Shown in pieces: positions 2 through 16,559 of a stretch of 30,334 nt of DNA; position 1 is the stretch's first letter, and each line of letters begins with the position of its first letter. A model generated the notes under the pieces. That model did not search any database, was not told the origin of the DNA, and was given only the letters and a program-made list of their open reading frames with translations. Where the stretch lies: the NCBI GenBank assembly GCA_964469765.1, contig CAYYAU010000001.1, forward strand, positions 1-30,334, read 5' to 3'. The DNA comes from an uncultured Clostridia bacterium (GTDB lineage Bacteria > UBA6262 > WVXT01 > CAYYAU01). Position numbers and translations under genes: made by a program.

Positions 2-250
2 ATTGTGGTTAAATCTATAGATGAAATGGAGAAAGAGATTAAAGAAAAAAAAGTATCTATCGGAATTATTACAGTTCCTGCACGAAATGCTCAGGATGTT
101 GCTGAACGGCTTATTAAATCAAGCATTGAGTGTATTCTTAATTTTGCGCCAGTTGCTTTGACAGTTCCGGAAAATGTGAAAGTAAAAAGTGTTGATCTGT
201 CAAGAGAACTTGAAACGCTTTCTTATTTCTTGGTTAACAAAAGAAAATGA
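2..250 (+). CDS. rex: Redox-sensing transcriptional repressor Rex, C-terminal part (5'-truncated by window edge)
   Basis: GIITVPARNAQDVAERL...ILNFAPVALTVPENVKVKSVDLSRELETLSYFL matches the Rex C-terminal NAD(H)-binding/dimerisation region. The frame is open to the window start. The stop overlaps the next ATG (ATGA 247-250). Confidence 0.9.
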   Translation: MVVKSIDEMEKEIKEKKVSIGIITVPARNAQDVAERLIKSSIECILNFAPVALTVPENVKVKSVDLSRELETLSYFLVNKRK

Positions 251-1302
251 AATATATTTCCAAAGATAATTTTTTAAAATTGTTAGAATTCTTACAGAGA
301 GATTATTATATCTATATTCCTATCAAAAAGGGTAATAAACTTTTCTATAAGAGGCTCATCAATAATAAAGATTCAAAAGCCAATATATCGCGTATTGATG
401 ATATGGTAATAGGTGGAGTGAGAATTTCTGAACCACTTAAGTCTTTTTTTGTTAAGGCACGGGAGAAAGTTGCAGAGGGTTTTAAATCTCCTTTACTTGA
501 AGAAAATAAGCCTTATTGTATTGTAGGTGTGAAGGCATGTGACTTAAAAAGCCTAGAGGTTTATGATTATGTCTTTTGTAATCATGATTATACAGACCCA
601 TTTTATATAAAAAAAAGAGAAGAGAATCTTATTATTTCTTCTGATTGTACCAATACTTTGGATACATGTTTTTGTTTAGCAGTGGGTGTGAAGCCTTATC
701 CTCAAAAAAATTTTGATATTAATCTTTCTGAAATTAATTCAGGTTTTATAATTGAGGTAGGGTCACAAAAGGGACAAGAGCTTATTAATAAATATCCATT
801 TCTTTTTGAAGAAACAGAAAATGAATTAATTAAGCAGAGAGATGAGAGAAGAGAAAAGGTTATCAAAAAGTTAAAAAAGAATATAGAAGAGAATAATGTT
901 CCAGATTACTCTCTTTTTAAAGGAATAATTGAAAGAAATTTTGAATCAGATATCTGGAAAGATGAAGCAAAAACTTGTGTAGAGTGTGGAGCCTGTAATA
1001 CAATATGTCCAACATGCCATTGTTTTCTCTTATATGACCAGATGAATAACAATAAAATGGCAAGATTACGGATATGGGATTCTTGTATGATAAAGGATTT
1101 TGCAGAAGTTGCTGGTGGGGCTAATCCAAGACCCAGATTATGGATGAGATTAAGAAATAGATTTGAGAAGAAGTTTGATTTTTTCTTTAAAGTAGCACAT
1201 CTCTATGCCTGTACAGGGTGCGGTAGGTGTATTTTAGCATGCCCAGCAAATATTGATATAAGAAAGGTGTTAAGGAGATTGGTTGATGCATCAAAAGGAT
1301 AA
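247..1302 (+). CDS. 4Fe-4S protein, AsrA / sulfhydrogenase beta (HydB) / FlxB family
   Basis: Motifs GVKACD, CTNTLDTCFC, CVECGACNTICPTCHCF, WDSC, RxRFxKKF and CTGCGRCILACP are typical of the AsrA/HydB family. Confidence 0.85.
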   Translation: MKYISKDNFLKLLEFLQRDYYIYIPIKKGNKLFYKRLINNKDSKANISRIDDMVIGGVRISEPLKSFFVKAREKVAEGFKSPLLEENKPYCIVGVKACDLKSLEVYDYVFCNHDYTDPFYIKKREENLIISSDCTNTLDTCFCLAVGVKPYPQKNFDINLSEINSGFIIEVGSQKGQELINKYPFLFEETENELIKQRDERREKVIKKLKKNIEENNVPDYSLFKGIIERNFESDIWKDEAKTCVECGACNTICPTCHCFLLYDQMNNNKMARLRIWDSCMIKDFAEVAGGANPRPRLWMRLRNRFEKKFDFFFKVAHLYACTGCGRCILACPANIDIRKVLRRLVDASKG

Positions 1303-2110
1303 TCCATATATTCCTATTGAAGCTGAGGTTAGTGAGGTTATACCAGAAACTCCAACAATAAAGACTATCAGGTTAAAGCCAAAAGAAAAGGTTTTGTTTA
1401 AAACCGGACAGTTTATTGAACTGACTATTCCTGGAGTTGGTGAGGCACCATTTACTCCATCATCAAAGCCATCATTGAAGGATACAATTGAAGTGACAGT
1501 AATGAGGGTGGGTAAGGTGACTGAGAAGATTCATCAGCTTAAAAAAGGTGATATTGTAGGAATAAGAGGTCCTTTTGGAAAAGGGTATCCATTGAATGAG
1601 TTTAAAGGTAAAGAAGTGGTTGTTATAGGAGGGGGTTGTGGTTTTGCTCCTTTAAGGAGTTTGATGTATGAGTTTTTGGAAAGAAGTAAAGAGTTTAAAA
1701 GGCTATTTTTCAGAGGTGGGTGTAAGACCCCTCAAGAGTTTTTATATAAACAGGAAATTGAAAAATGGACAGAAAGAAAGGATTTGAATGTAAAGATTAC
1801 GGTTGATAAAGGTGACCACAGTTGGAAAGGACATGTTGGACTTGTAACAAGTATTTTGGATGATTTAAAGATGAGTTATAAAAACGGTATTGCTGTTGTT
1901 TGTGGTCCTCCTATAATGATGAAGTTTGTGACTAAAAAGCTTCTTGATATGGGTTTTAAAGAAGAGAATATCTATCTTTCTATGGAAAAGAATATGTCTT
2001 GTGGGATTGGAAAATGTGGTCATTGTAGAATCGGGATATATTATGCCTGTAAGGATGGGCCTGTTTTTCAGTACGCTAAGATAAAAGATTTCCCAAATAT
2101 CTGGGAGTGA
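1283..2110 (+). CDS. FAD/NAD(P)-binding [2Fe-2S] oxidoreductase, AsrB / sulfhydrogenase gamma (HydG) / PyrK family
   Basis: GQF..GEAPF FAD-binding region, RGPFGKGY, GGGCGFAPLRS nucleotide-binding loop, CGPPIMM, and C-terminal MSCGIGKCGHC...CKDGPVF 2Fe-2S motif. Confidence 0.9.
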   Translation: MMHQKDNPYIPIEAEVSEVIPETPTIKTIRLKPKEKVLFKTGQFIELTIPGVGEAPFTPSSKPSLKDTIEVTVMRVGKVTEKIHQLKKGDIVGIRGPFGKGYPLNEFKGKEVVVIGGGCGFAPLRSLMYEFLERSKEFKRLFFRGGCKTPQEFLYKQEIEKWTERKDLNVKITVDKGDHSWKGHVGLVTSILDDLKMSYKNGIAVVCGPPIMMKFVTKKLLDMGFKEENIYLSMEKNMSCGIGKCGHCRIGIYYACKDGPVFQYAKIKDFPNIWE

Positions 2111-2132
2111 ATTTTCTATATTCTATAAGAGA

Positions 2133-2699
2133 ATGAAAACAAGCGCAGAACAGATTCATCAAGGAAAAATAAGTTTAAATCCTAAGAAAACGAAGGATAA
2201 AAGGCTTTTTATTGACCTGGATATTTGTTTTTCTAAACAATGTGAAAGCTGTGTAGTTGAATGTAGTTATCTGTATCATCAGCAGAAGATTGGTAATAAT
2301 GGGGTTATCTCTATAGCTGAACTTTCAACGTATGTTTTAGTTTGTCGTAGATGTGAAGAGCCTCACTGCATAAATGCTTGTCCTGTTGAAGCACTTGAAC
2401 AGCAGAAGGATAAGAATAATTTGCTTATTCGTCACAATATGAGATGTATTAGTTGCAAATCCTGTTCACATGCCTGTCCTTATGGAACAATTTATCCAGA
2501 GTTTGTTCCTTTACTGGTACACAATTGTGATTTTTGTTTGGATAGACGACAAGAAAAAAATGAGCCATTGTGTATTAATACCTGTCCTTATGGTGCCTTG
2601 AAATTAGTTAGCGGTGATGTTAAATTAGATGAACATACATTTCTTGTTGGAGATAATTTAGTGGTACATTCTACACATTGGGATAGAGAAAAGGCATGA
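2133..2699 (+). CDS. Polyferredoxin-type 4x[4Fe-4S] electron-transfer subunit (HycB/HydN/CooF/DmsB-like)
   Basis: Four Cys clusters: CFSKQCESCVVEC, CRRCEEPHCINACP, CISCKSCSHACP, CDFC...LCINTCP. Confidence 0.8.
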   Translation: MKTSAEQIHQGKISLNPKKTKDKRLFIDLDICFSKQCESCVVECSYLYHQQKIGNNGVISIAELSTYVLVCRRCEEPHCINACPVEALEQQKDKNNLLIRHNMRCISCKSCSHACPYGTIYPEFVPLLVHNCDFCLDRRQEKNEPLCINTCPYGALKLVSGDVKLDEHTFLVGDNLVVHSTHWDREKA

Positions 2700-3619
2700 A
2701 ATATATTTTTAATTTTTTATTTTATGGATTTTTATTAACCACCATTATAGGACTTTCTGCAAGTTGGTTAGATAGAAAGATTACCGCAAGACTACAGTAT
2801 CGGGTTGGACCTCCTTTTCTTCAGCCATTCATAGATATTATGAAGCTTTTAGGTAAAGAAACGCTTATACCAAAAGGTTCATCCAGCATTACTTTTCTGT
2901 TTGCACCTGTTTTAAGTTTTGCAGGGGTTATGATTGTGGCAACTTTGTTATGGATAAATACCATTAATCTTAATAAAGGTTTTTTAGGAGATATCATAGT
3001 GGTCCTATATTTGTTAATGTTGCCTTCCATTGGTCTTCTTTTGGGAGGATTTTCTTCAAGGAACCCTTTGGCAAGTCTAGGGGCTTCGCGTGAAATGAAA
3101 CTTATATTAAGTTACGAACTTCCTTTCTTACTTGCCATTCTTGTTCCTGTAATAAAATCTGGGTTATCTATAAAGGTTGGTGAAATATTAAGTTTTCAAT
3201 CTCACAATGGAGTAATTATTGGAAGTTTTTCAGGATTTTTAGCATTTTTAGTTTGTTTAATTTGTATACAGGCAAAGTTAGGACTTGTTCCTTTTGATAT
3301 TGCTGAGGCAGAGACTGAAATTACAGCTGGTCCTTTGATAGATTATTCAGGAACCCCTCTTGCTATATATAGGTTGACAAAGAATATGCTTTTATTTGTT
3401 CTTCCTTTCTTTTTAATAATATTATTTATGGGTGGAATAAGATTTAGTGGTGTGCATATACTATTTGGTATCTTGAAGTATATTGGACTGGTTTTATTAA
3501 TTACTGTGATAAGAAATACAAATCCACGAATAAGAATTGACCAGGCAGTAAAATTCTTCTGGTTAGTGATAACACCGCTTGCTGTAATCTCAACAATATT
3601 AGCACTAATAGGAAAGTAA
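2696..3619 (+). CDS. Complex I subunit 1-like membrane anchor of group 4 hydrogenase (NuoH/HycD/EchB/MbhM-like)
   Basis: DRKITARLQYRVGPPFLQPFIDIMKLLGKE, GASREM..LSYE and PFDIAEAETEI motifs, with about 8 hydrophobic segments. Confidence 0.9.
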   Translation: MKYIFNFLFYGFLLTTIIGLSASWLDRKITARLQYRVGPPFLQPFIDIMKLLGKETLIPKGSSSITFLFAPVLSFAGVMIVATLLWINTINLNKGFLGDIIVVLYLLMLPSIGLLLGGFSSRNPLASLGASREMKLILSYELPFLLAILVPVIKSGLSIKVGEILSFQSHNGVIIGSFSGFLAFLVCLICIQAKLGLVPFDIAEAETEITAGPLIDYSGTPLAIYRLTKNMLLFVLPFFLIILFMGGIRFSGVHILFGILKYIGLVLLITVIRNTNPRIRIDQAVKFFWLVITPLAVISTILALIGK

Positions 3620-3620
3620 A

Positions 3621-4052
3621 ATGAGTTTTAAACTAAAGGCATTGTTGAAGTCTCCTTGGGTTTTTCATTTATCTACAGGCAGTTGCAATAACTGTGATAT
3701 TGAGATACTGGATTGTCTTACTCCAAGGTTTGATATTGAAAGGTTTGGGATGTTACTTACTGGAAGTATAAAGCATGCTGATGTGCTTTTAATAACAGGA
3801 ATCTGTAATAGACAGTCTACGATAAGGCTGAAAAGATTATATCAGCAGATTCCAAAACCTTGTATTGTTGTTGCTGTGGGTCAGTGTGCGTTATCAAGAG
3901 GAATGTTTATACATAGTTACAACGCACCTGTTCCTTTGGATAAGGTAATTCCTGTTGATGTTTATATACCAGGTTGTCCACCGAAACCAGAAGCAATTAT
4001 TGCTGGAGTGGTTAAATTAATAGAAAAGGTGAGAAATAAAAAGCGAGGCTAA
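3621..4052 (+). CDS. Group 4 [NiFe]-hydrogenase small subunit (NuoB/HycG/EchC/MbhJ-like)
   Basis: GSCNNCDIE, RFDIERFG, HADVLLITG, AVGQCA and DVYIPGCPPKPEAI provide the four Cys ligands of the proximal cluster. Confidence 0.9.
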   Translation: MSFKLKALLKSPWVFHLSTGSCNNCDIEILDCLTPRFDIERFGMLLTGSIKHADVLLITGICNRQSTIRLKRLYQQIPKPCIVVAVGQCALSRGMFIHSYNAPVPLDKVIPVDVYIPGCPPKPEAIIAGVVKLIEKVRNKKRG

Positions 4053-4054
4053 AT

Positions 4055-4528
4055 ATGGAAAGAGAAAAGATTTTAGAGAGTATAAAAGAAAGATTTAAAG
4101 ATAATATAATTGAGGTTTTTGATAAATCAAAAGATAGAGTATATATAGAAATAAAACCCGAATTCTTAATAGATATAGTAAAGTATATATTTAAAGACTT
4201 GGGCGCAAGGTTTAATACAGCAACAGGTATTGATGCACGGTATTATATGGAAATTTTATATCATTTCATTATTGAAGACATTAATCTATTAATTTCTTTA
4301 AGGGTAAAACTAAACAAACAGAAATTGGAGATAACATCTATTGCTCCTTTGTTTGAAGGAGCTAACTGGATAGAAAGAGAGATTCATGAGATGTTAGGAG
4401 TAGATTTTAAAGGACATCCTGATTTAAGAAGACTTCTTTTATCTGATGATTGGCCTGAAGAGATTTGTCCTTTAAGATGTGATTATAAAGAATGGGATAA
4501 GAAGGCAATAAGAGATAGAGGAGAGTAG
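4055..4528 (+). CDS. NuoC-like 30 kDa subunit (EchD/MbhK-like)
   Basis: SIAPLFEGANWIEREIHEMLGVDFKGHPDLRRLLLSDDWP...PLR is the Complex1_30kDa signature. Confidence 0.88.
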   Translation: MEREKILESIKERFKDNIIEVFDKSKDRVYIEIKPEFLIDIVKYIFKDLGARFNTATGIDARYYMEILYHFIIEDINLLISLRVKLNKQKLEITSIAPLFEGANWIEREIHEMLGVDFKGHPDLRRLLLSDDWPEEICPLRCDYKEWDKKAIRDRGE

Positions 4529-4601
4529 GTTTGTATATCGTACATTCAAAAGTATCTCCAAAAGAAGAGTTATATGGTTTGATGTTTCGGAGAGGAAAAC
4601 A

Positions 4602-5783
4602 ATGACAAAGGTAAAAATTCCAATAGGACCTTATCATCCGTTGCAAGAAGAGCCTGAATTTTTTACTTTAACAGTTGAAGGAGAAAGGGTTATAGATATT
4701 GATGTAAGGATTGGTTATAACCATAGAGGGATAGAGAAGCTTTCAGAAACAAAGACATTTGATCAATCCACATTTGTTATAGAAAGAATCTGTGGTATCT
4801 GTTCAACAAGTCATCCATTTGCTTATACAAGAGCTGTAGAGGATATTATTTCTGTTGAGGTACCTGAAAGAGCAAAGTATATAAGAACAATAATAGCTGA
4901 GGGAGAAAGAATTCATTCACATCTTTTGTGGTTTGGTTTAGCTGGACATTTTTTAGGATATAATACAGTCTTTATGTGGGCGTGGAAAATAAGGGAAGAG
5001 ATATTAGATGTAATGGAGATTTTATCAGGAAATAGAAATAATTATGCTATGTTTAAACCAGGGGGAGTAAGAAGGGATATTAAATCTGAAGATATTTCCA
5101 TTGTGTTAAAAAAGGTTGATTCTATTGTTCCAACATTGCAAATGCTTAAGAAGGCTGTGATGGATGACTATGTTATTCATGCCAGAACTAAAGGTATAGG
5201 TATTCTTACAAAAGAGGATGCTATAAACTATTGTGCGTTAGGTCCTACTGCCAGGGCATCTGGTGTGAAGAAGGATGTGAGAAAGGATGTTCGATATGGA
5301 GCTTATGATAAGGTGGACTGGAATATGATTCTAACCTATAATGGAGATGTGTTTGATAAGGTTGTGGTTAGAATATTAGAGATTTTTGAGTCTATTAAGA
5401 TAATGAGACAGTGTTTGTTAAAGCTTCCTAAGACAGACATAGACCTTAATATTAAAGATATCCCTCCTGGTGAAGGAATAGGCACCCATGAGGCACCTCG
5501 AGGAGAGGTGTTTCATTATGTAAGAAGTGATGGAACAAATAGACCTGTTCGTCATAAAGTAAGAGCACCTACCTTTATGAATCTTCCCACATTTAAGGCA
5601 ACAGTTGTGGGAGAAACAGTCTCTGATGCAACAATAATTTTAGCTGCTATTGATCCATGTTATTGTTGTACAGAACGGATGGTTGTCCAGAATACAAAAG
5701 GTGATAGAATATTCAATGGCACTGATTTAATAAAACTCTCTCAGGAAAAAACCAACAGAATCAGGGAAAAGAAAAGATGTTAA
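4602..5783 (+). CDS. Group 4 [NiFe]-hydrogenase large (catalytic) subunit (EchE/HycE/MbhL-like)
   Basis: GPYHP, HRGIEKL, L1 motif ERICGICSTSH, EAPRGE, RAPT and L2 motif DPCYCCTER, followed by a short C-terminal extension. GGAGAGG RBS upstream. Confidence 0.93.
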   Translation: MTKVKIPIGPYHPLQEEPEFFTLTVEGERVIDIDVRIGYNHRGIEKLSETKTFDQSTFVIERICGICSTSHPFAYTRAVEDIISVEVPERAKYIRTIIAEGERIHSHLLWFGLAGHFLGYNTVFMWAWKIREEILDVMEILSGNRNNYAMFKPGGVRRDIKSEDISIVLKKVDSIVPTLQMLKKAVMDDYVIHARTKGIGILTKEDAINYCALGPTARASGVKKDVRKDVRYGAYDKVDWNMILTYNGDVFDKVVVRILEIFESIKIMRQCLLKLPKTDIDLNIKDIPPGEGIGTHEAPRGEVFHYVRSDGTNRPVRHKVRAPTFMNLPTFKATVVGETVSDATIILAAIDPCYCCTERMVVQNTKGDRIFNGTDLIKLSQEKTNRIREKKRC

Positions 5784-7429
5784 ATACACAACTTTTTAAA
5801 TTTGATGCGCTTTCTAATTTTGTAGGGATATTTATTATTTTCTTTTCATTACTTATAATAATTTACTCTTCTGGTTTTATGAAAGCAAAAAGAGGGTTAA
5901 TTCTTTATTATTTTTATATCGTGCTTACCCTTATTGCTTCTTTAGGGGCTGTATTTTCTAACAATCTGGTTCTGTTTATGGTATGCTGGGGATTTTTAGC
6001 GTTTCTTTTATACTTATTAATCTGGTTTGGAGAAAAGGAACACACCCCATCAACCGCTAAGAAATCGTTTATTATAATTGGTGGTAGTGATATCTTTATG
6101 TTGTTGGGATTGGCATTTGTATGGAAGATTACTGGTACAGTACAAATGGATAAAATAAGTCTTTTATTGAATACAAAGGCTTCTGTTTTTGCATATCTAT
6201 GTCTTGCAATAGGTGCATTTGCAAAAGCGGGCGCTATGCCTTTTCATACATGGGTTCCTGATACGGCTTCAGATGCCCCTACTCCAGTGACTGCGTATTT
6301 ACCCGCATCTTTGGATAAACTCCTTGGAATATATTTTCTTGGTAGGCTTTCTTTAGATATGTTTAAGATGGACGCTATAATGAACATTGTATTAATGAGT
6401 ATTGGTAGTATAACCATTATTGCTGCCGTGATGATGGCACTTGTTCAGCATGATTTAAAAAGGCTGTTAGGCTATCATGCTGTAAGCCAGGTTGGATATA
6501 TGGTATTAGGTATTGGGACAGGCACTGTTTTAGGTATTGCTGGTGGAATCTTTCATATGCTTAATAATGCTATATATAAAGCGGGTTTATTTTTATCAGG
6601 TGGAAATGTTGAGAAAAAAGCAGGGACAACAGATTTGGAAAGGCTTGGTGGGTTTGCTAAGTTGATGCCTATTAGTTTTATCACATTTCTGATTGCTTCG
6701 TTATCTATTTCAGGTGTTCCACCTTTTAATGGTTTTGTCTCAAAGTGGCTTATTTATCAAGGTATAATAGAAACAGGTAAATCTGGCGGTTATCTCTGGG
6801 TACTATGGCTTATTGCAGCAATGTTTGGTAGTGCACTTACATTGGCAAGCTTTATGAAGTTGGTCCATGCTGTTTTCTTAGGTCAACCATCTAAAGAGTA
6901 TAAAGTATCGAGTATCAAACATCGTGAAGTTAGTATAACAATGTGGATACCTGTAGTTATACTTGCAATATTATGTGTAGTTTTTGGTGTGTTTGCTTAT
7001 CAGATTCCTTTAAGGATTTTTATATTCCCTAGTGTTGGGTTTACAGGGGAGTTCTCTGGGTTATGGACCCCAAGTCTTGCTACTTTACTTATTTTAGTAG
7101 GGATTCTTCTAGGGGTTATAATTTATTTTATAGGAACAGTAACAAAAACACGCCAAACAGAGGTGTTTATAGGTGGTGAGATAATAGATGAGTATCCTCA
7201 AATGAGAGTTTCTGGAGCACGGTTTTATGATACAATCAGAGAGTTAGATATCTTAAAGAGTATCTATTCATTAGCAGAAAAGGGATACTTTGATATATAC
7301 AGGATTGGTCAAAGAATAATTTACAGTTTCAGTAGTTTGTTGAGATATTTTCATAATGGTATTTTATCTACTTACTTAGCTTGGTGTATTTTTGGAATGA
7401 TTATACTTTTTTATGTGCTTTTCAGGTAA
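5777..7429 (+). CDS. Antiporter-like proton-translocating subunit, NuoL/MrpA/HyfB type with C-terminal lateral helix
   Basis: AKAGAMPFHTWVPD, DLKRLLGYHAVSQVGY, HMLNNAIYKAGLFL, SISGVPPFNGFVSKW, and C-terminal HNGILSTYLAW resembling the NuoL end. Confidence 0.85.
   Translation: MLNTQLFKFDALSNFVGIFIIFFSLLIIIYSSGFMKAKRGLILYYFYIVLTLIASLGAVFSNNLVLFMVCWGFLAFLLYLLIWFGEKEHTPSTAKKSFIIIGGSDIFMLLGLAFVWKITGTVQMDKISLLLNTKASVFAYLCLAIGAFAKAGAMPFHTWVPDTASDAPTPVTAYLPASLDKLLGIYFLGRLSLDMFKMDAIMNIVLMSIGSITIIAAVMMALVQHDLKRLLGYHAVSQVGYMVLGIGTGTVLGIAGGIFHMLNNAIYKAGLFLSGGNVEKKAGTTDLERLGGFAKLMPISFITFLIASLSISGVPPFNGFVSKWLIYQGIIETGKSGGYLWVLWLIAAMFGSALTLASFMKLVHAVFLGQPSKEYKVSSIKHREVSITMWIPVVILAILCVVFGVFAYQIPLRIFIFPSVGFTGEFSGLWTPSLATLLILVGILLGVIIYFIGTVTKTRQTEVFIGGEIIDEYPQMRVSGARFYDTIRELDILKSIYSLAEKGYFDIYRIGQRIIYSFSSLLRYFHNGILSTYLAWCIFGMIILFYVLFR
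6897..6924 (+). repeat. Degenerate heptamer tandem repeat inside the NuoL/MrpA-like gene
   Basis: AGTATAA AGTATCG AGTATCA AACATCG. Confidence 0.6.
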
Positions 7430-7445: not shown

Positions 7446-7991
7446 ATGATTGAACTTTATCTTTTATTATCTTTTGTAATTATTGCTGCTATTGTTGCTA
7501 TAGAGATTAATGATATGCTTTCTTCAGTAATAGCAGTTGGAGCTGTTGGTTTAGGAGTTTCAATGGCATTTTTGATACTAAAGGCTCCGGATATAGCAAT
7601 TACTCAGCTTGTTGTTGAGATACTTTGTCTTATTATTTTGGTACGGGCAACTTTAAAAAGAGACCTTCCATTTTCTACAAAAATAGGCTGGCTTCTTAAC
7701 GGTTTAATAACATTTGGGTTTATTATAATCTTTCTGGTTGTGGCAGTAAAGGCATTTAAGGATTTACCACAGTTTGGTTATCCGATAATGCGTGTAGCAA
7801 AGACATACATTCAGCGTGGATTAATTGGAACAGGTGCAGCTAATTTGGTTACATCTGTGATTCTTGATTTTAGAGCTTATGATACCTTAGGTGAAGCCAC
7901 AATATTATTTACTGCTGTGATTGGATTGCTTGCTGTTTTAAGGAAAATAGGGAGGAAAAAGACAGCAGATTCTCCGGAAGAAGATATATAA
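7446..7991 (+). CDS. Mrp-module subunit, DUF4040 + MnhB N-terminal type (MbhD/MbhE-like fusion)
   Basis: LKAPDIAITQLVVE (DUF4040-like) followed by GAANLVTSVILDFRAYDTLGEATILF (MrpA C-terminal/MbhE motif). Confidence 0.8.
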   Translation: MIELYLLLSFVIIAAIVAIEINDMLSSVIAVGAVGLGVSMAFLILKAPDIAITQLVVEILCLIILVRATLKRDLPFSTKIGWLLNGLITFGFIIIFLVVAVKAFKDLPQFGYPIMRVAKTYIQRGLIGTGAANLVTSVILDFRAYDTLGEATILFTAVIGLLAVLRKIGRKKTADSPEEDI

Positions 7992-7993: not shown

Positions 7994-8464
7994 ATGAAGA
8001 ATAAAAACCATAATTTCCAAAATAAACAATCAGGTATGAGTCTTATTGTAAAGACAGTTACTCGTCTTACGGTGGGACTTATACTTCTTTATGGAATTTA
8101 CATTCTCTTGCATGGCCATCTATCCCCAGGTGGGGGGTTTGCTGGTGGAGTGATTATTGCTTTAGCATTTGTTCATTTGATGCTTGCTTATGGGAAAGAC
8201 GTTGTCTTTAAAAGGGTATCTAAACAGATAGTCTCATTATGTGAAAGTATAGGTGCAGTGTTATTCTTAACTATAGCGGTGTTGGGCTTTACAGGAGGGT
8301 ATTTCTTTTTTAATTTTATATCAAAAGGAAAGCCATTTAAGCTTTTTAGTTCAGGTATAATTCCATTATGTAACATTGCTATAAGTTTAAAGGTTGGAGC
8401 TGGTTTGTTTGCAATATTTATTGTGCTTGTACTGTTAAAATTTAATAAAGAGGAAAAGAAATGA
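7994..8464 (+). CDS. mnhB: Na+/H+ antiporter subunit B (MrpB/MbhF-like)
   Basis: GHLSPGGGFAGGVI motif, GIIPLCNIAISLKVG, and four TM segments. Confidence 0.85.
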   Translation: MKNKNHNFQNKQSGMSLIVKTVTRLTVGLILLYGIYILLHGHLSPGGGFAGGVIIALAFVHLMLAYGKDVVFKRVSKQIVSLCESIGAVLFLTIAVLGFTGGYFFFNFISKGKPFKLFSSGIIPLCNIAISLKVGAGLFAIFIVLVLLKFNKEEKK

Positions 8465-8799
8465 TTGTATATATGTTTTGTATTGTAATGTTTTGTTTAG
8501 GAATCTACTGTATTTTAACAAAAAGAAATATTATTAAAATTATTATTGGCATTATGATAATAGAGTATTCCGTACATCTATTCTTTATTTTGGTAGGGTA
8601 TCGTATGAAGGGTAGAGCCCCTATTCTTTCGTCTAATGCAAAGATTTTAAATATGGTTGACCCTTTACCACAAGCCTTAGTACTTACAGCCATTGTGATT
8701 GGACTAGCAACAACAGCACTGCTTGTAGCATTTGCAATGAGGATATATGAAAAGTATGGGACATTTGATATAGATAAGATTAGGGAGCTAAGGGGATGA
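8461..8799 (+). CDS. mnhC: Na+/H+ antiporter subunit C (MrpC/MbhG/NuoK-like)
   Basis: RNIIKIIIG...VDPLPQALVLTAIVIG signature. ATGA overlaps at both ends. Confidence 0.9.
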   Translation: MIVYMFCIVMFCLGIYCILTKRNIIKIIIGIMIIEYSVHLFFILVGYRMKGRAPILSSNAKILNMVDPLPQALVLTAIVIGLATTALLVAFAMRIYEKYGTFDIDKIRELRG

Positions 8800-10298
8800 A
8801 TAATTATTATATATTACCTCTATTTACTGTTATACCATTAGCAGGTGCATTCTTAATCTCTCTTATTGGTAAAAGAATAAACAAAATTTCAGATATTCTT
8901 GGAATTTTCACATGTTTGTTACTCTGTTATATATCTTTTTTAAGTATTCATTTATATAATTTGTATGGAGTTTTAACTTATAATGTTGGAGGATGGAAAC
9001 CTCCTACAGGAATTGGTATGGTTTTAGACGGGTTTACTTCATTTATGTTGGTTGTAATAAATTTAGTTGCATTTTTAGTTGCTTTATATTCAAAGGACTA
9101 TATGGAGAAATTCACTTCAAAGGATAAGTTTTATACACTTTTTCTTTTAATGCTTGCGGGGATGAATGGAGTTATTATAACAGGTGACTTATTTAACCTA
9201 TTTGTATTTTTAGAGATTGCTGCTGTTGCAAGTTATGCATTGGTTGCTTTTGGTACAGAAAGGCATGAACTTGAAGCTGCATTTAAATACGCAATTATGG
9301 GAACAGTGGGTTCATTGTTTATTCTTTTAGGGATTGTTTTCTTATATAGTTATACTTCAACATTAAATATGGCTGATATGGCAGAGGTTCTTGCTCAGAA
9401 AGGAACAAACAGTATTGTTCTTATGGCAGGAGGCCTTTTTATAATGGGTTTTGGCTTAAAAGCAGCACTCGTTCCTTTTCATGCGTGGCTTCCTGATGCT
9501 CATCCATCTGCACCTGCACCAATTTCAGCTATGCTTTCGGGTGTTTTGATAAAGTCATTGGGTGTTTATGCAATATGTAGAATATTCTTTAATGTATTGG
9601 GTTTAACTTCAATAATATCTGCCATACTTATGTTTTTAGGTGTCTTGTCAATGGTTGTAGGTGCAATATTAGCAATTGGACAGTGGGACTTTAAACGACT
9701 TTTAGCCTATTCATCTATAAGTCAAATAGGTTATATTGTTTTAGGAATTGGTTTAGCCACTCCTCTGGGGATAATAGGAGGTTTATTTCATCTTTTAAAC
9801 CATTCCACCTTTAAGTCTTTATTGTTTCTTAATTCAGGTGCAGTGGAGTATTCAGTAGGAACTCGTAACTTAAAGGATATGGGAGGATTATCTCATAGAA
9901 TGCCTGTAACAACTACAACTGGTTTAATAGCATCTATGTCAATTGCTGGCGTTCCTCCTTTTAGTGGTTTCTGGAGTAAACTTATTATTATTATTGCTTG
10001 TGTAGAAGCAGGCAAGTTTCTGTATGCATTTTGTGCTGTATTAGTAAGCATACTTACTTTAGCAATGTATATGAAGGTTATAAGGTATGCATTTTTTGGA
10101 AGTTTAAAAGAGAAATTAAGAATGATAAAAGAGACTCCATTGTTTATGAAATTCTCTATGGTTGTGTTGGCGTTTATATGTTTGATAGGAGGAATATTAT
10201 TTATACCCTCACTAAAAGAGGTTTTCTTAAAACCAGCAGGCGACATTCTTTTAGAAGGAACAAAATACGCTACAATGGTTCTGAAAGGCATAAAATGA
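8796..10298 (+). CDS. mnhD: Na+/H+ antiporter subunit D (MrpD/MbhH/NuoN-like)
   Basis: GDLFNLFVFLEI, EAAFKY, KAALVPFHAWLPDAHPSAP, DFKRLLAYSSISQIGY and AGVPPFSGFWSK. Confidence 0.9.
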   Translation: MNNYYILPLFTVIPLAGAFLISLIGKRINKISDILGIFTCLLLCYISFLSIHLYNLYGVLTYNVGGWKPPTGIGMVLDGFTSFMLVVINLVAFLVALYSKDYMEKFTSKDKFYTLFLLMLAGMNGVIITGDLFNLFVFLEIAAVASYALVAFGTERHELEAAFKYAIMGTVGSLFILLGIVFLYSYTSTLNMADMAEVLAQKGTNSIVLMAGGLFIMGFGLKAALVPFHAWLPDAHPSAPAPISAMLSGVLIKSLGVYAICRIFFNVLGLTSIISAILMFLGVLSMVVGAILAIGQWDFKRLLAYSSISQIGYIVLGIGLATPLGIIGGLFHLLNHSTFKSLLFLNSGAVEYSVGTRNLKDMGGLSHRMPVTTTTGLIASMSIAGVPPFSGFWSKLIIIIACVEAGKFLYAFCAVLVSILTLAMYMKVIRYAFFGSLKEKLRMIKETPLFMKFSMVVLAFICLIGGILFIPSLKEVFLKPAGDILLEGTKYATMVLKGIK

Positions 10299-10798
10299 AT
10301 AAAAGTAGAGTAATTCTATTTTTTCTTGCGCTTATTGTGTGGTGTTTGTTGAACTGGAAACCTGATTGGCAACATATTATTATTGGAATTTTTGTTTCCG
10401 CAATTGTTGCTTTTTTAACAGGAGATTTATTTATTAATAGGCCTCATTTATTGAAACATCCATATAGATATGTATATTTTTTTGTTTATTATGCCCCAAA
10501 ATTTTTATGGGAATGTTTTAAAGCAAATCTTGATGTTGCATATCGTGTAATACATCCAAAGCTTCCAATAAATCCGGGTATTGTTAAGGTAAAGACTATT
10601 TTAAGGTCAGATACAGCCTTAACCTTTTTAGCCAATTCAATAACACTTACCCCTGGCACTTTAAGTGTGGATATTGATAAGGAGAATGGATTTTTGTATA
10701 TACACTGGATTGATGTTAAGGCAAAGGATATTGAACCTGCTACAAAGATGGTTGTTGAACGTTTTGAAAAGATTTTAAGCAGGATTTTTGAAGAGTAA
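10295..10798 (+). CDS. mnhE: Na+/H+ antiporter subunit E (MrpE/MbhA-like)
   Basis: Real start is most likely the ATG at 10295 (ATGA overlap with the mnhD stop), giving MNKSRVILF.... Contains KANLDVAYRVIHP..INPGIVKV and LANSITLTPGTL. Confidence 0.9.
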   Translation: MNKSRVILFFLALIVWCLLNWKPDWQHIIIGIFVSAIVAFLTGDLFINRPHLLKHPYRYVYFFVYYAPKFLWECFKANLDVAYRVIHPKLPINPGIVKVKTILRSDTALTFLANSITLTPGTLSVDIDKENGFLYIHWIDVKAKDIEPATKMVVERFEKILSRIFEE

Positions 10799-10815: not shown

Positions 10816-11184
10816 ATGAAAAAATTAAGATGGTTAATAGGAACAATTATTTTAATAATCATTTTAAGTTTGATTATATTAAGACCTCTTCCTTTTCTTT
10901 TTTATCCTGGTCTTCCTTATATAGGATTTTTAGGAAGAATTCTTTATATAATTATTCTTACCTGCTTTCTGTGTCTGTATCGTATATGGAAAGGCCCAAC
11001 AAGTGCAGATAGGATTGTTGCTATAGATATTTTAGGGATTCTTATTGTGGGATTATGTGCAGTGCTGACCATATCAACAGGTAGGTCCTGGTATATTGAT
11101 ATAGGTATAGCATGGGCACTACAAAGTTTTATAGGTAGTCTTGCACTTTCTAAGTATTTAGAGGACAAAGATTTTGATGAGTGA
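10816..11184 (+). CDS. mnhF: Na+/H+ antiporter subunit F (MrpF/MbhB-like), with hydrophobic N-terminal extension
   Basis: RIWKGPTSADRIVAIDILG motif and three core TM segments. Confidence 0.85.
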   Translation: MKKLRWLIGTIILIIILSLIILRPLPFLFYPGLPYIGFLGRILYIIILTCFLCLYRIWKGPTSADRIVAIDILGILIVGLCAVLTISTGRSWYIDIGIAWALQSFIGSLALSKYLEDKDFDE

Positions 11185-11214: not shown

Positions 11215-11538
11215 ATGATAGATACAATAGGATTAATATTTATTTGTATTGGTTTAGCATTTGATATCTTTGGTTGTTTGGGTCTTATGAGACTTCCTGA
11301 TATATATACTCGTCTTCAGGCTGCTACAAAGTGCGTGACTTTAGGCACTTGTAGTATATTGTTTGGTGCATTTCTAATGGTTGGATTTACTGCTGCTGGA
11401 GTAAAACTTCTCTTATGTATTATATTTATCTTGTTAACTTCACCTGTGGCTGCCCACGCGATTGCTAAAGGTGCACATAAAGCCGGAATAAAGCTCTGTA
11501 GAGAAAGCACATGTGATAAATATGCTGAAGATAAATAA
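11215..11538 (+). CDS. mnhG: Na+/H+ antiporter subunit G (MrpG/MbhC-like)
   Basis: GLMRLPDIYTRLQAATKCVTLG and LLTSPVAAHAIAKGA. Confidence 0.9.
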   Translation: MIDTIGLIFICIGLAFDIFGCLGLMRLPDIYTRLQAATKCVTLGTCSILFGAFLMVGFTAAGVKLLLCIIFILLTSPVAAHAIAKGAHKAGIKLCRESTCDKYAEDK

Positions 11539-11544: not shown

Positions 11545-12159
11545 ATGAAACTACCAAAAGTAAGAGAGTTAATAGAGGCAATAAAGGCCATTATAAAAGG
11601 TCCTTATACCTCAAAATTTCCAAAAGAGCCACATACTCCTTATAGGAGTTTTAGGGGACAGCCTAAGTTTAATCAAGAGATATGTGTTGGTTGTCTCGCT
11701 TGTGAGGAGATTTGTCCTGTAGATGCAATTACTCACAAGGATATTGTTGATGAAAAGAAAAATGCTAAAAGAGTTATGATTCATTACACAGATGTGTGTA
11801 TATTTTGTGGTCAGTGTGAGGCAGTATGTATAGCTGAACATCAGGGAATTAAACTTTCCAATGAATGGGAGCTTTCATTTTTTGATAGAAAACAGGCATA
11901 CGAGACAATTGAAAAAGAGTTACAGCTTTGTGAAATATGCGGTGAGCCTATTGCTTGTAAAGACCATTTAAAATGGATTTCTAATAGATTAGGAGAACTT
12001 AGTTATTCAAGTCCTACATTGTATTTATCTCGTCTTAAGGATTTAGGAATAACGGATGAAAATATTGTCTCAGTATTAAAAGATAAAGGTCGTTCAGATA
12101 GAGTAAAAATTCTTTGTGCTCGTTGTAGAAGAGACACCACATTAACTACAAAAGAGTAG
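11545..12159 (+). CDS. NuoI/HycF/MbhN-like 4Fe-4S subunit of the hydrogenase
   Basis: GPYTSKFP, FRGQP, CVGCLACEEICP and CIFCGQCEAVC, plus extra C-terminal CEICG...CARC. Confidence 0.88.
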   Translation: MKLPKVRELIEAIKAIIKGPYTSKFPKEPHTPYRSFRGQPKFNQEICVGCLACEEICPVDAITHKDIVDEKKNAKRVMIHYTDVCIFCGQCEAVCIAEHQGIKLSNEWELSFFDRKQAYETIEKELQLCEICGEPIACKDHLKWISNRLGELSYSSPTLYLSRLKDLGITDENIVSVLKDKGRSDRVKILCARCRRDTTLTTKE

Positions 12160-12253: not shown

Positions 12254-12724
12254 ATGAAAAGCATATTCAAAAATATATTAAAAGGGAAGGTAGTTATTGT
12301 AGGGATTGGAAACATCCTTCGTGGTGATGATGCTGTTGGTCCAGAGCTTATAAAAAGACTTAAGTTAAAGATTAAAAATGAATCTCAGATTGAATTACTC
12401 GATGTAGGAGAAGCACCTGAGAATTATTTAGAAAAAATTGTAAAACAAACTCCTGATACTGTATTATTAATTGATGCAGTTGATTTTGGTGGTTCAGCTG
12501 GTAGTGTAACTCTATTAGAACAAGAAAGTCTTAAGGAAGACGGTTTAACCACACATAATGCTTCTTTAAAGTTGACTATTAAGTATTTGAAAGAAAGAAG
12601 TATAAACAGAATATTTATAATAGGAGTTCAACCAGAACAGATAAAGTTTGGTGGTGGTTTATCAAAGTCTGTAGACAAAACTCTTAATCAGATAAAAGAG
12701 GAAATAATTAAATGCATGAATTAG
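12254..12724 (+). CDS. hycI: Hydrogenase maturation endopeptidase, HycI type
   Basis: VGIGNILRGDDAVGP, GEAPENY, IDAVDFG, THNASL and IGVQPEQIKFG. Confidence 0.88.
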   Translation: MKSIFKNILKGKVVIVGIGNILRGDDAVGPELIKRLKLKIKNESQIELLDVGEAPENYLEKIVKQTPDTVLLIDAVDFGGSAGSVTLLEQESLKEDGLTTHNASLKLTIKYLKERSINRIFIIGVQPEQIKFGGGLSKSVDKTLNQIKEEIIKCMN

Positions 12725-13059
12725 GTATAGCACATGATTTGTTTGATATTCTAAACAAGAAGGCAAAGGAAAATAATCTGAAGAAAATAACAAAAGTCAG
12801 GATTAAAGTAGGTGTTGCTTCTGGAGTTGAAAAGGATTTTTTAAGACACAGTTTTGTTGACCATATATTTCCTAACACTATAGCTGAGGCAGCAGTATTA
12901 GAGATTACAGATGACCCTATAGAAGTGGTATGTAAAGATTGTAAAAAGAAGATAGAACAGCAACATTTTGTTATAAACTGTCCCCACTGTGGTAGTTACA
13001 ATATAGAAATTAATAGTGGTGATAGAGTATTTATTGAAAGTATTGAAGGAGAACATTAG
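12712..13059 (+). CDS. hypA: Hydrogenase nickel incorporation protein HypA
   Basis: N-terminal MHE Ni motif and zinc-finger CKDC...CPHC. Confidence 0.93.
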   Translation: MHELGIAHDLFDILNKKAKENNLKKITKVRIKVGVASGVEKDFLRHSFVDHIFPNTIAEAAVLEITDDPIEVVCKDCKKKIEQQHFVINCPHCGSYNIEINSGDRVFIESIEGEH

Positions 13060-16282: not shown

Positions 16283-16288
16283 ACTAAA

Positions 16289-16504
16289 ATGTGTTTAGCT
16301 ATCCCAATGAAAATTATAAGAATAAATAGGGAAAATGCAACAGTAGAAATAAACGGTGTAGAACGTGAGGTAAGTCTACAACTATTGAATATGAATAATA
16401 TAAATATTGGTGATTACATTATAGTGCATGCTGGGTTTGCTATCCAAAAGATTAATAAAGAAGAAGCAAAACGCACCTTATCTATTCTAAAAGAGTTTAG
16501 TTGA
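16289..16504 (+). CDS. hypC: Hydrogenase maturation chaperone HypC
   Basis: MCLAIP N-terminus and GDYIIVHAGFAI. Confidence 0.96.
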   Translation: MCLAIPMKIIRINRENATVEINGVEREVSLQLLNMNNINIGDYIIVHAGFAIQKINKEEAKRTLSILKEFS

Positions 16505-16559
16505 TAAAATAATATGTTGATAAGTAAAATATTTTACACAGAAAAAAAGAGGCATAATT

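What the first reader, a model, noticed from the sequence alone, without database searches (positions are those of the whole stretch)
2..5783. Rex-coupled membrane-bound group 4 [NiFe]-hydrogenase fronted by an NAD(P)H diaphorase module instead of a formate/CO dehydrogenase
Seen: rex, an AsrA/HydB-like Fe-S gene, an AsrB/HydG-like FAD/NAD(P) gene and a HycB/CooF-like polyferredoxin lead straight into NuoH-, NuoB- and NuoC-like genes and a NiFe large subunit. Junctions overlap or are at most 22 bp until the one 73-bp gap before the large subunit. No HydD/HydA (group 3b) genes and no fdhF/cooS lie in the window. Established: HycB/CooF-type subunits wire a donor enzyme (FdhF, CooS) to group 4 hydrogenases. 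HydB/HydG are the NAD(P)-reactive half of group 3b sulfhydrogenases. Characterised Mbh/Ech use ferredoxin. Rex senses NADH/NAD+. Inference: this is a chimeric NAD(P)(H)-linked, ion-translocating hydrogenase. Because NADH to H2 is uphill under standard conditions, it may run gradient-driven H2 evolution from NAD(P)H, H2-driven NAD(P)+ reduction, or a ferredoxin:NAD(P)+ branch. I know of no biochemical characterisation of this architecture, though similar clusters may already be noted in MAG papers.
Basis: partly seen in the sequence, partly recalled or inferred. Interest (0 to 1): 0.82.

Follow-up and report, generated by a model that had tools for sequence, protein, structure and literature searches.

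The report
Known Hun hydrogenase operon, Rex-controlled
This is a complete copy of the "Hun" operon, a membrane-bound nickel-iron hydrogenase with a sodium/proton antiporter module and an NAD(P)H-type flavoprotein front end. It was already described from uncultured sediment bacteria, but its true electron donor has never been tested.

Summary
In detail: gene identities, order and junctions are all as described. But the finding covers only the first 8 genes of a longer unit, rex plus the 16 genes hunA-hunP (2-12159), followed by maturation genes to 18685.

The architecture is not new. It matches gene for gene the "Hun" supercomplex of Glass et al. 2021, including the CGIC/CYCC motifs, and the "Mbh plus adjacent oxidoreductase" of Atribacteria papers.

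New here:
- HunA and HunB are full-length homologues of Pyrococcus sulfhydrogenase I beta and gamma, now solved as 9nez. All cofactor motifs are invariant in 54-63 orthologues.
- HunC and HunP are HycB-type and HycF-type, the wiring pair of formate hydrogenlyase.
- hunABC-hunD..G synteny holds in every one of 80 species-level loci with enough upstream DNA, across more than 10 phylum labels. One is the cultured Desulfosarcina variabilis.
- Rex operators lie just upstream of the operon in 29 of 53 testable loci, about 75-fold enriched.
- The host is probably Omnitrophota.

The NAD(P)H-linked reading is better founded on homology than the published ferredoxin-only model. It remains untested.

Verdict: a known kind with an open mechanism. 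Interest is moderate.

The parts
2..250 (+). rex, 3' part (C-terminal 82 aa of the redox-sensing repressor). Its stop overlaps the hunA start by 4 bp.
   Evidence: NCBIfam Rex models, E 7.5e-26. Full-length orthologues sit in the same position in 19 loci.
247..1302 (+). hunA: Fe-S subunit, homologue of sulfhydrogenase beta (HydB) / AsrA, with 15 invariant Cys.
   Evidence: PDB 9nez_B, E 7e-46 over the full length.
1283..2110 (+). hunB: FAD/NAD(P)-binding [2Fe-2S] flavoprotein, homologue of sulfhydrogenase gamma (HydG) / AsrB.
   Evidence: PDB 9nez_C, E 1.8e-57. Pfam FAD_binding_6, NAD_binding_1 and DHODB_Fe-S_bind. GGGxGxAP, CGPP and the 4 Cys are conserved in 63 sequences.
2133..2699 (+). hunC: HycB/CooF-type polyferredoxin with 16 Cys, enough for four [4Fe-4S] clusters.
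   Evidence: Best PDB matches are HycB3 of HDCR (7qv7_A) and HycB (7z0s_B). The Cys are invariant.
2696..3619 (+). hunD: NuoH/MbhM-like membrane anchor.
   Evidence: Pfam NADHdh, E 4.5e-67.
3621..4052 (+). hunE: NuoB-like small subunit carrying the proximal [4Fe-4S] cluster.
   Evidence: Pfam Oxidored_q6. C22, C25, C89 and C119 are conserved.
4055..4528 (+). hunF: NuoC-like subunit.
   Evidence: Pfam Complex1_30kDa.
4602..5783 (+). hunG: group 4 [NiFe]-hydrogenase large subunit, with CGIC and CYCC motifs and a cleavable C-terminal extension.
   Evidence: Best PDB match is MbhL 6cfw_L, E 3e-92, 44% identity. The motifs match Glass et al..
5777..7429 (+). hunH: NuoL/MrpA/MbhH-like antiporter-type subunit.
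   Evidence: Pfam Proton_antipo_M.
7446..7991 (+). hunI: fused MbhD and MbhE domains.
   Evidence: Pfam MbhD and MbhE.
7994..8464 (+). hunJ: MnhB-like subunit.
   Evidence: Pfam MnhB.
8461..8799 (+). hunK: NuoK/MnhC-like subunit.
   Evidence: Pfam Oxidored_q2.
8796..10298 (+). hunL: MrpD/NuoN-like subunit, the second antiporter-type subunit.
   Evidence: Pfam Proton_antipo_M.
10295..10798 (+). hunM: MnhE-like subunit.
   Evidence: Pfam MNHE, E 9e-47. The ATG start at 10295 overlaps the hunL stop.
10816..11184 (+). hunN: MrpF-like subunit.
   Evidence: Pfam MrpF_PhaF.
11215..11538 (+). hunO: MnhG-like subunit.
   Evidence: Pfam PhaG_MnhG_YufB.
11545..12159 (+). hunP: HycF/NuoI-type subunit with two [4Fe-4S] clusters and extra conserved Cys pairs in a C-terminal extension.
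   Evidence: Best PDB match is HycF 7z0s_F (8e-19), ahead of MbhN 6cfw_N (2e-10).
12254..12724 (+). hycI-type maturation endopeptidase.
   Evidence: Pfam HycI. It follows hunP in 51 loci.
12712..13059 (+). hypA
   Evidence: Pfam HypA.
13934..18685 (+). hypF, hypC, hypD and hypE maturation genes (13934-16282, 16289-16504, 16560-17657, 17663-18685).
   Evidence: Assigned from the ORF translations by recognition, not by a Pfam scan. The tblastn queries built from these ORFs also hit downstream of hun in many loci.

Best explanation
**What it is (shown).** The window carries a complete rex-hunABCDEFGHIJKLMNOP operon followed by hycI and hyp genes. This is the Hun complex of Glass et al. 2021, here in a low-GC, probably Omnitrophota, genome.

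**How it most likely works.**
- Shown by homology: HunB binds FAD, NAD(P)(H) and a [2Fe-2S] cluster. HunA carries several Fe-S clusters. Together they are the counterpart of the NAD(P)-reactive beta/gamma half of Pyrococcus sulfhydrogenase I.
- Inferred: electrons pass HunB -> HunA -> HunC (four clusters) -> HunP (two clusters) -> HunE (proximal cluster) -> the [NiFe] site of HunG. HunC is HycB-type and HunP is HycF-type, the same pair that wires FdhF to the hydrogenase in E. coli formate hydrogenlyase.
- Inferred: redox turnover is coupled through HunD and the Mrp-like module HunH-O, which has two antiporter-type subunits, to H+/Na+ movement.
- Inferred: the enzyme is therefore a reversible NAD(P)H:H+ oxidoreductase tied to the ion gradient. 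At very low H2 it could vent NAD(P)H as H2 near equilibrium. At higher H2 it would need the gradient to push electrons uphill. In H2-rich settings it could run backwards as an ion-pumping H2:NAD(P)+ reductase.

**Regulation.** Rex operators shown in orthologous loci imply that the operon is switched on when NADH/NAD+ rises. That favours the reductant-disposing, H2-evolving direction in this lineage. Ferredoxin may feed in as well at HunC or HunP.
For: **Identity as Hun**
- 16 genes in the published order, with the CGIC/CYCC motifs.
- Large-subunit relatives of 81-86% identity are labelled Omnitrophica or Atribacteria.

**Diaphorase module**
- HunB matches 9nez_C at E 1.8e-57 and HunA matches 9nez_B at 7e-46, both over the full length. 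All 15 HunA Cys and the 4 [2Fe-2S] Cys of HunB align with the Pyrococcus proteins.
- GGGxGxAP, CGPP, GPFG and all Cys ligands are 90-100% conserved across 54-63 orthologues.

**Wire**
- HunC's best matches are HycB proteins.
- HunP's best match is HycF rather than MbhN.

**Physical unit**
- Genes overlap or lie 1-22 bp apart in the window, and median gaps are -26 to +20 bp across loci.
- hunA-B-C-D..G order holds in every locus with enough upstream DNA, across more than 10 phylum labels.
- In Spirochaetota-type loci the Mrp genes moved to a divergent operon, but hunABC stayed with hunD-G-P.

**Rex**
- rex lies in the locus in 29 of 53 testable loci, in three different positions.
- There are 38 operator-like sites in 13.6 kb of promoter DNA against 42 in the other 1.16 Mb.
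- Rex is the most recurrent flanking gene family.

**Real hydrogenase**
- Both CxxC motifs, the C-terminal extension, hycI and hyp genes are present.

**Expression**
- Bird et al. 2019 report co-transcription in sediment.
Against: - No biochemical data exist for any Hun complex.
- NAD(P)H -> H2 is endergonic at standard conditions (about -320 against -414 mV). An ion-pumping module therefore fits a ferredoxin donor more naturally.
- The published models assume ferredoxin.
- Rex control is not specific to NADH-using enzymes.
- The HunA-HunC contact is inferred from gene order and analogy only.
- HunB has a conserved basic residue (K/R148) where NADH-specific relatives carry an acidic one. This hints at NADPH or dual specificity, which fits less neatly with an NADH sensor.
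- The operator is not visible in this window, which starts inside rex.
Confidence: 0.55

Rival explanations
1. Ferredoxin-driven, H2-evolving ion pump, the published Hun/Mbh model. Reduced ferredoxin is the only physiological donor, and HunABC merely serves as the ferredoxin entry and wire.
For: - This is the model of Glass et al. 2021 and the JS1 genome papers.
- HunG is closest to ferredoxin-dependent MbhL.
- The energetics of Fd -> H2 suit an outward ion pump with two antiporter-type subunits.
Against: - It gives no role to the strictly conserved FAD/NAD(P)-binding fold of HunB.
- By established knowledge, Mbh takes ferredoxin directly at its NuoI-like subunit without such a module.
- HunAB's characterised relative, sulfhydrogenase I beta/gamma, is a pyridine-nucleotide module.
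Confidence: 0.22
2. Three-way redox hub. Ferredoxin enters at HunC or HunP. Electrons can leave either to protons (H2) or through HunAB to NAD(P)+. The complex then acts as an Rnf-like Fd:NAD(P)+ oxidoreductase with a hydrogen vent, or as a confurcating NAD(P)H + Fd -> H2 enzyme.
For: - The long HycB-type wire offers several surface clusters.
- JS1 lineages are reported to carry this complex where OP9 lineages carry Rnf.
- Rex control suits NADH/NAD+ balancing.
Against: - HunB resembles the non-bifurcating small flavoprotein type (PyrK/NfnA-like), and no second flavin site is evident.
- Omnitrophota with this enzyme also encode Rnf, so there is no strict complementarity.
Confidence: 0.15
3. 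HunAB is a sulfur, polysulfide or sulfite reductase site, so the complex disposes of electrons on sulfur compounds rather than exchanging them with NAD(P).
For: - The families carry 'sulfhydrogenase' and 'anaerobic sulfite reductase' names.
- Bird et al. mention possible reduction of sulfur compounds.
Against: - No AsrC or siroheme subunit lies in the window or in the recurrent flanks.
- Scores are below the AsrA/AsrB equivalog cut-offs.
- HunG keeps a complete [NiFe] site and its maturation system.
Confidence: 0.04
4. HunAB belongs to a separate soluble enzyme, for example a group 3b hydrogenase encoded elsewhere, and is only co-transcribed with the membrane hydrogenase.
For: HunAB's nearest solved relatives are parts of a soluble 3b enzyme.
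Against: - hunABC is invariantly adjacent to hunD-G in all loci with enough upstream DNA, including rearranged ones.
- Start and stop codons overlap.
- Omnitrophota MAGs with this enzyme are reported to have no other hydrogenase.
- HunP is the HycF type that docks a HycB-type partner.
Confidence: 0.04

Closest known systems
Hun supercomplex (Glass et al. 2021, bioRxiv 10.1101/536078, later Environ Microbiol)
   Same: The same 16 genes occur in the same order: HunAB Asr/Hyd-like, HunC Fe-S, HunD-G plus HunP hydrogenase, HunH-O Mrp-like. The CGIC/CYCC motifs match. Omnitrophica is already listed as a host phylum.
   Different: - The published model has ferredoxin as donor and does not mention Rex or NAD(P)H.
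- Here rex is the first gene of the operon.
- This copy is at most 86% identical in HunG to the nearest genome or metagenome relative found here.
Pyrococcus furiosus membrane-bound hydrogenase Mbh (group 4d, PDB 6CFW)
   Same: Mrp-linked membrane arm. The large subunit is 44% identical (E 3e-92). The NuoB/C/H/I-like core is shared.
   Different: - Mbh has no HydBG-like or HycB-like subunits and takes ferredoxin directly.
- Mbh has one antiporter-type subunit and Hun has two.
- Hun's NuoI-like subunit is HycF-type.
E. coli formate hydrogenlyase (group 4a, PDB 7Z0S) and Thermococcus onnurineus Mfh/Mch (group 4b)
   Same: A HycB/CooF-type polyferredoxin plus a HycF-type subunit wires a soluble donor enzyme to a group 4 hydrogenase. 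The 4b enzymes are also Mrp-linked.
   Different: The donor enzyme is FdhF or CooS in those systems. Here a flavin/NAD(P) module occupies that position, and no FdhF or CooS lies in the window.
Pyrococcus furiosus sulfhydrogenase I (group 3b, PDB 9NEZ/9NF0)
   Same: HunA and HunB align over their full length with the beta and gamma subunits and share all cluster ligands and nucleotide motifs.
   Different: There are no group 3 large or small subunits (HydA/HydD). The module is attached to a membrane-bound group 4 enzyme.
Respiratory complex I
   Same: It has the same overall logic: a pyridine-nucleotide dehydrogenase module, an Fe-S chain, a NuoB/D catalytic pocket and antiporter-like ion translocation.
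   Different: The N-module (NuoEFG, FMN) is unrelated to HunAB (FNR-like, FAD). The acceptor here is H+ at a [NiFe] site, not quinone.
Salmonella anaerobic sulfite reductase AsrABC
   Same: AsrA-like and AsrB-like proteins in the same order.
   Different: There is no AsrC. Scores are below the equivalog cut-offs.

Membership tests
Hun complex (Glass et al. 2021) | 16-gene operon hunA-hunP in the published order: Asr-like AB, Fe-S C, NuoH-like D, hydrogenase EFG, Mrp-like H-O, NuoI-like P. | tested here: met
   ORFs and Pfam/NCBIfam assignments compared with the paper's description.
Hun complex (Glass et al. 2021) | HunG metal-site motifs CGIC and CYCC. | tested here: met
   RICGICS at 62-68 and DPCYCC at 351-356. 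C355 is conserved in 99% of 81 sequences.
Hun complex (Glass et al. 2021) | HydDB assignment to group 4g, distant from other 4g sequences. | not testable with these tools
   HydDB is not available. [quoted passage not shown]
Group 4 [NiFe]-hydrogenase | Large subunit with both CxxC pairs, a NuoB-like small subunit with the proximal cluster, NuoH- and NuoL-like membrane subunits, and maturation by endopeptidase and Hyp proteins. | tested here: met
Mbh, group 4d (ferredoxin-coupled, Mrp-linked) | Mrp-type membrane module fused to the hydrogenase. | tested here: met
   MbhD/E, MnhB, C, D, E, F and G domains.
Mbh, group 4d (ferredoxin-coupled, Mrp-linked) | Ferredoxin is the direct donor, with no accessory donor module. 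| tested here: not met
   Three extra redox subunits, HunABC, are conserved. The donor itself cannot be tested by computation.
Group 4a/4b formate- or CO-linked hydrogenases | HycB/CooF-type polyferredoxin plus a HycF-type subunit. | tested here: met
Group 4a/4b formate- or CO-linked hydrogenases | FdhF or CooS catalytic donor subunit encoded with the complex. | tested here: not met
   None is in the window. In the 64 loci where both hunB and hunC were located, the hunB-hunC gap is at most 446 bp, so there is no insertion there.
Group 3b sulfhydrogenase | Beta and gamma (HydB/HydG) diaphorase subunits. | tested here: met
   9nez_B and 9nez_C matches. Scores are below the NCBIfam equivalog cut-offs.
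Group 3b sulfhydrogenase | Group 3 large and small subunits (HydA/HydD). | tested here: not met
   Absent from the window and from the recurrent flanking families. The rest of the genome cannot be tested.
Anaerobic sulfite reductase AsrABC | AsrC siroheme catalytic subunit, with AsrA and AsrB scoring above the equivalog cut-offs. | tested here: not met
   AsrB scores 259.8 bits against a cut-off of 288.6, and AsrA 122 against 323. No AsrC was found.
Rex regulon member | Rex operator (TTGTGAn6TCACAA) in the promoter. | tested here: inconclusive
   The promoter lies outside the window. It is met in orthologous loci: 29 of 53 have a box within 250 bp of the operon start.

The most novel reading that the evidence does not exclude
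Hun is a true pyridine-nucleotide-linked, ion-translocating group 4 hydrogenase, in effect a 'hydrogen-type complex I'. Its NAD(P)H-dehydrogenase module was recruited independently from a group 3b beta/gamma pair. Rex gates it so that it opens when NADH/NAD+ rises. It then couples NAD(P)H/H2 interconversion to the Na+/H+ gradient in energy-starved subsurface bacteria. This would be the first group 4 enzyme shown to use NAD(P)(H).
Probability: 0.45. Interest if true: 0.75.

Novelty: already known. Interest (0 to 1): 0.4.

Why it matters
They come from sediments, aquifers and digesters, including Omnitrophota, Atribacterota, Spirochaetota and Desulfobacterota. Whether it takes electrons from ferredoxin or from NAD(P)H changes the energy budgets and the H2 thresholds assumed in models of subsurface fermentation and syntrophy.

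If NAD(P)H is a substrate, it would be a second, independent invention of the complex I principle on the Mbh/Mrp scaffold.

The question can be tested. The operon is present in cultured organisms: Desulfosarcina variabilis str. Montpellier (locus L065) and, according to Glass et al., Kosmotoga.

Tried and rejected
- **Rex box inside the window.** Only chance-level matches were found, 3 against 2.3 expected. The operator has to be read from orthologous loci.
- **Internal promoters or terminators splitting hunABC from the hydrogenase.** Counts are at shuffle level.
- **A 'short' Hun without an Mrp module in Spirochaetota.** Rejected. hunH-L are encoded divergently just upstream of hunA.
- **HunC-HunD gene fusion in L058 as evidence of physical contact.** Rejected. 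That long-read contig is full of frameshifts, and hunB and hunF are also fragmented.
- **Atribacteria as host,** suggested by labels on large-subunit hits. The housekeeping CarB half points to Omnitrophota instead.
- **A recurrent NADH- or ferredoxin-producing enzyme in the flanks.** None was found. Rex and the maturation genes (hypF, hypD) are the main recurrent neighbours, along with a radical-SAM gene in 15 loci.
- **NADH versus NADPH specificity from sequence.** Only a weak hint was obtained.
- **Literature.** Nobu et al. 2016 is not held in the library, and a search for a paper on the sulfhydrogenase I structure found none. No paper in the library links Rex to Hun.

Full report
**Observation**

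The window is 30.3 kb at about 33% GC, and every credible gene is on the + strand.
- 2-250 encodes the last 82 residues of Rex (NCBIfam Rex models, E 7.5e-26).
- 247-1302 is an AsrA/HydB-type Fe-S protein.
- 1283-2110 is an AsrB/HydG-type FAD/NAD(P)/[2Fe-2S] protein.
- 2133-2699 is a 16-Cys polyferredoxin.
- 2696-3619, 3621-4052 and 4055-4528 are NuoH-, NuoB- and NuoC-like.
- 4602-5783 is a [NiFe] large subunit with RICGICS and DPCYCC motifs and a C-terminal extension.

Pfam scans of the remaining ORFs show no HydA/HydD, FdhF, CooS or AsrC anywhere in the window.

**What the finding missed**

The unit does not end at 5783. It continues with:
- a NuoL/MbhH-like subunit (5777-7429);
- a MbhD/E fusion, then MnhB-, NuoK/MnhC-, MrpD-, MnhE-, MrpF- and MnhG-like subunits (7446-11538);
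- a NuoI/HycF-like subunit (11545-12159);
- hycI, hypA, a small conserved ORF, a flavin-reductase-like gene, and hypF, hypC, hypD and hypE, ending at 18685.

Gaps stay between -7 and +30 bp through hunP. Promoter-like and terminator-like matches inside the operon are at shuffle level.

**It is the Hun complex**

Large-subunit relatives of 81-86% identity fill the 8000-candidate limit of the search. Where they are named, they are labelled Omnitrophica or Atribacteria.

Glass et al. 2021 (bioRxiv 10.1101/536078) describe a 16-subunit 'Hun' hydrogenase-Na+/H+ antiporter supercomplex in Atribacteria, Firmicutes, Omnitrophica, Elusimicrobia, Bacteroidetes and Kosmotoga. Its parts are:
- HunAB similar to AsrA/AsrB;
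- HunC Fe-S;
- HunEFGP hydrogenase;
- HunD, H, I, L and K proton-pumping;
- HunI-O Mrp-like.

HunG carries CGIC and CYCC and is called group 4g by HydDB. The window matches this gene for gene and motif for motif.

That paper proposes ferredoxin as the donor and mentions neither Rex nor NAD(P)H as a substrate. Bird et al. [quoted passage not shown] Other JS1 papers call it MbhA-N and assume ferredoxin or formate. A review of complex I-like enzymes lists only ferredoxin, CO and formate as donors of the MBH family. HydDB treats 4g as a loose class of unknown function.

So the architecture is known and named, and its biochemistry is unknown.

**Host**

Homologues of the housekeeping CarB half encoded at 27298-28875 carry only Omnitrophota/Omnitrophica names. 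The contig is therefore most likely from Omnitrophota rather than Atribacteria.

**Module identities against solved structures**

| Subunit | Best PDB match | E-value |
|---|---|---|
| HunB | P. furiosus sulfhydrogenase I gamma, 9nez_C (full length) | 1.8e-57 |
| HunA | Sulfhydrogenase I beta, 9nez_B | 7e-46 |
| HunG | MbhL, 6cfw_L (44% identity) | 3e-92 |
| HunG | HycE | 9e-77 |
| HunC | HycB3 of HDCR (top match); E. coli HycB also listed | 2.6e-13 (HycB3) |
| HunP | HycF, 7z0s_F | 8e-19 |
| HunP | MbhN | 2e-10 |

- After HydG, HunB's next matches are PyrK, NqrF and NfnA-type proteins.
- Every conserved Cys of HunA aligns with a Cys of the beta subunit.
- The HycF alignment includes a CxxC in HunP's C-terminal extension.

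The peripheral arm is therefore formate-hydrogenlyase-like (a HycB plus HycF pair). The catalytic and membrane parts are Mbh/Mrp-like. The distal module is the diaphorase half of a group 3b enzyme.

**Conservation**

A scan of one genome per GTDB species with HunG found at least 576 genomes with relatives. The best 80 are 76-86% identical. They carry labels from Omnitrophota, Atribacterota, Elusimicrobiota, Spirochaetota, Hydrogenedentota, Fermentibacterota, Desulfobacterota, NC10, Sumerlaeota, Nitrospirota and Clostridia. One is the cultured Desulfosarcina variabilis str. Montpellier, L065.

tblastn with all window proteins shows hunA-hunB-hunC-hunD-E-F-G in the same order and strand in every locus that reaches far enough upstream. 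Median intergenic distances are -26 to +20 bp.

In Spirochaetota-type loci hunP follows hunG directly, and hunH-L sit in a divergent operon next to hunA. The membrane module moved, but hunABC stayed with the hydrogenase core.

Alignments of 54-81 orthologues show:
- **HunB:** GQF..PG.GE.PFTPSS, GPFG, GGGxGxAP and CGPP motifs, and the four [2Fe-2S] Cys, at 90-100%.
- **HunA:** 15 invariant Cys.
- **HunC:** 16 Cys at 98-100%.
- **HunP:** eight cluster Cys plus two further conserved Cys pairs.
- **HunE:** the proximal-cluster Cys.

A nucleotide/flavin fold kept intact across this breadth argues that it is used.

**Rex**

The window begins inside rex, so its operator cannot be seen. The window itself has only chance-level matches to the Rex box. 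In the related loci:
- A full-length rex lies immediately upstream of hunA in 19 loci.
- It lies directly after hunP or about 2 kb further downstream in nine loci.
- It lies 0.7 kb upstream in one locus.

Matches to TTGTGAn6TCACAA with at most 2 mismatches fall within 250 bp of the operon start in 29 of 53 testable loci. That includes 25 of the 29 loci that carry rex. Where rex is the first gene there are often two boxes 21 bp apart. Where rex is elsewhere, a near-perfect box (TTGTGATTTTATTCACAA) sits 44-80 bp before hunA.

Overall there are 38 sites in 13.6 kb of promoter DNA against 42 in the other 1.16 Mb, roughly a 75-fold enrichment. Rex is also the most recurrent flanking gene family. 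Loci from Spirochaetota, Desulfobacterota, Hydrogenedentota and some others show neither rex nor a box.

I found no paper in the library that links Rex to Hun. This part appears to be a small new observation. Rex control fits a reductant-disposal role but does not identify the donor.

**Mechanism**

Shown by homology: HunB is a FAD/NAD(P)(H)/[2Fe-2S] protein and HunA a multi-cluster partner, like the NADP-reactive beta/gamma pair of sulfhydrogenase I. HunC and HunP are the HycB/HycF wiring pair. HunE and HunG form a complete [NiFe] site with its maturation system. HunD and HunH-O form an Mrp-type ion module with two antiporter-type subunits.

Inferred: an electron path HunB-HunA-HunC-HunP-HunE-HunG, with NAD(P)H/H2 interconversion coupled to the ion gradient.

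Using standard potentials from established knowledge, about -320 mV for NAD(P)+/NAD(P)H and -414 mV for H+/H2:
- H2 evolution from NAD(P)H needs either very low H2 (around 1 Pa brings the H+/H2 couple to about -265 mV) or the inflow of roughly two ions per H2.
- The reverse reaction at high H2 could pump about one ion.

Rex derepression at high NADH favours the H2-evolving direction in this lineage. A conserved K/R at HunB position 148 aligns with the Arg of the HydG 'TAR' segment, and there is no acidic residue at the end of the second strand. This is a weak hint of NADPH or dual specificity.

**Rivals**

The published ferredoxin-only model remains possible, but it leaves the conserved nucleotide fold unexplained. 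A three-way Fd/NAD(P)/H2 hub is compatible with everything seen.

A sulfur or sulfite reductase role lacks a catalytic subunit. A separate 3b partner is contradicted by three points:
- hunABC is invariantly adjacent to the hydrogenase core.
- Codons overlap between the genes.
- Williams et al. 2021 report that Omnitrophota MAGs with this group 4g enzyme have no other hydrogenase.

**Verdict**

The system is the already described Hun complex, so it is not a new kind. The points that remain of interest are:
- the unresolved donor, where the NAD(P)H reading is better grounded in homology than the published one;
- the Rex operator evidence;
- the wide, apparently mobile distribution of the operon;
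- its presence in cultured organisms, where the question can be settled.

Noticed in passing
loci L001-L080 compared with window 2-18685: Hun core proteins (HunG 76-86%, HunE 71-90% identical) are far more conserved across loci labelled as more than 10 phyla than the adjacent Hyp proteins (about 30-64%). The operon looks laterally mobile or under unusually strong constraint.
   Followed up: partly
window 11545-12159 (HunP): Beyond the eight Cys of two [4Fe-4S] clusters, HunP has conserved C129/C132 and C191/C194 pairs in a C-terminal extension. The first pair aligns with E. coli HycF. They could form a Zn site or an extra cluster site at the HunC interface.
   Followed up: partly
window 13079-13366: A 95-aa hydrophobic ORF with no Pfam match lies between hypA and hypF. 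Homologues of 51-58% identity recur in L014, L016, L033 and L043, downstream of hun where the position was checked.
   Followed up: partly
window 13297-13926: A flavin-reductase-like gene (Pfam Flavin_Reduct) is embedded among the hyp genes. It is shared only with locus L062, so it is not a conserved part of the system.
   Followed up: partly
window 12254-18685: hycI, hypA, hypF, hypC, hypD and hypE are present, but no hypB was seen in the window.
   Followed up: no
window 27298-28875: A split carB: only the C-terminal half (525 aa) of the carbamoyl-phosphate synthase large subunit is encoded here, with no N-terminal half adjacent. Homologues of 520-545 aa are common among the hits; the few that carry a taxon name, mostly the longer ones, are Omnitrophota.
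   Followed up: partly
window 28929-30334: The pyruvate kinase ORF has the barrel domain only (343 aa, no C-terminal domain). It is followed by an ORF that looks MATE-efflux-like by eye, not scanned against any family library, and that runs off the end of the window.
   Followed up: no
window 25400-27259: An amino-acid permease is fused to a C-terminal PTS EIIA-2 domain.
   Followed up: no
L044 19569-21068 and 14 other loci: A radical-SAM gene of about 500 aa lies downstream of hun in 15 loci but not in the window. It looks ThiH/HydG-like by eye and was not scanned against any family library.
   Followed up: no
L029, L046, L069, L076 (Spirochaetota-type loci): The operon is rearranged. hunP follows hunG directly, and hunH-L are transcribed divergently upstream of hunA.
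   Followed up: yes
L058 5700-11200: An apparent HunC-HunD fusion is an artefact of a frameshift-rich long-read assembly. hunB and hunF are also broken.
   Followed up: yes
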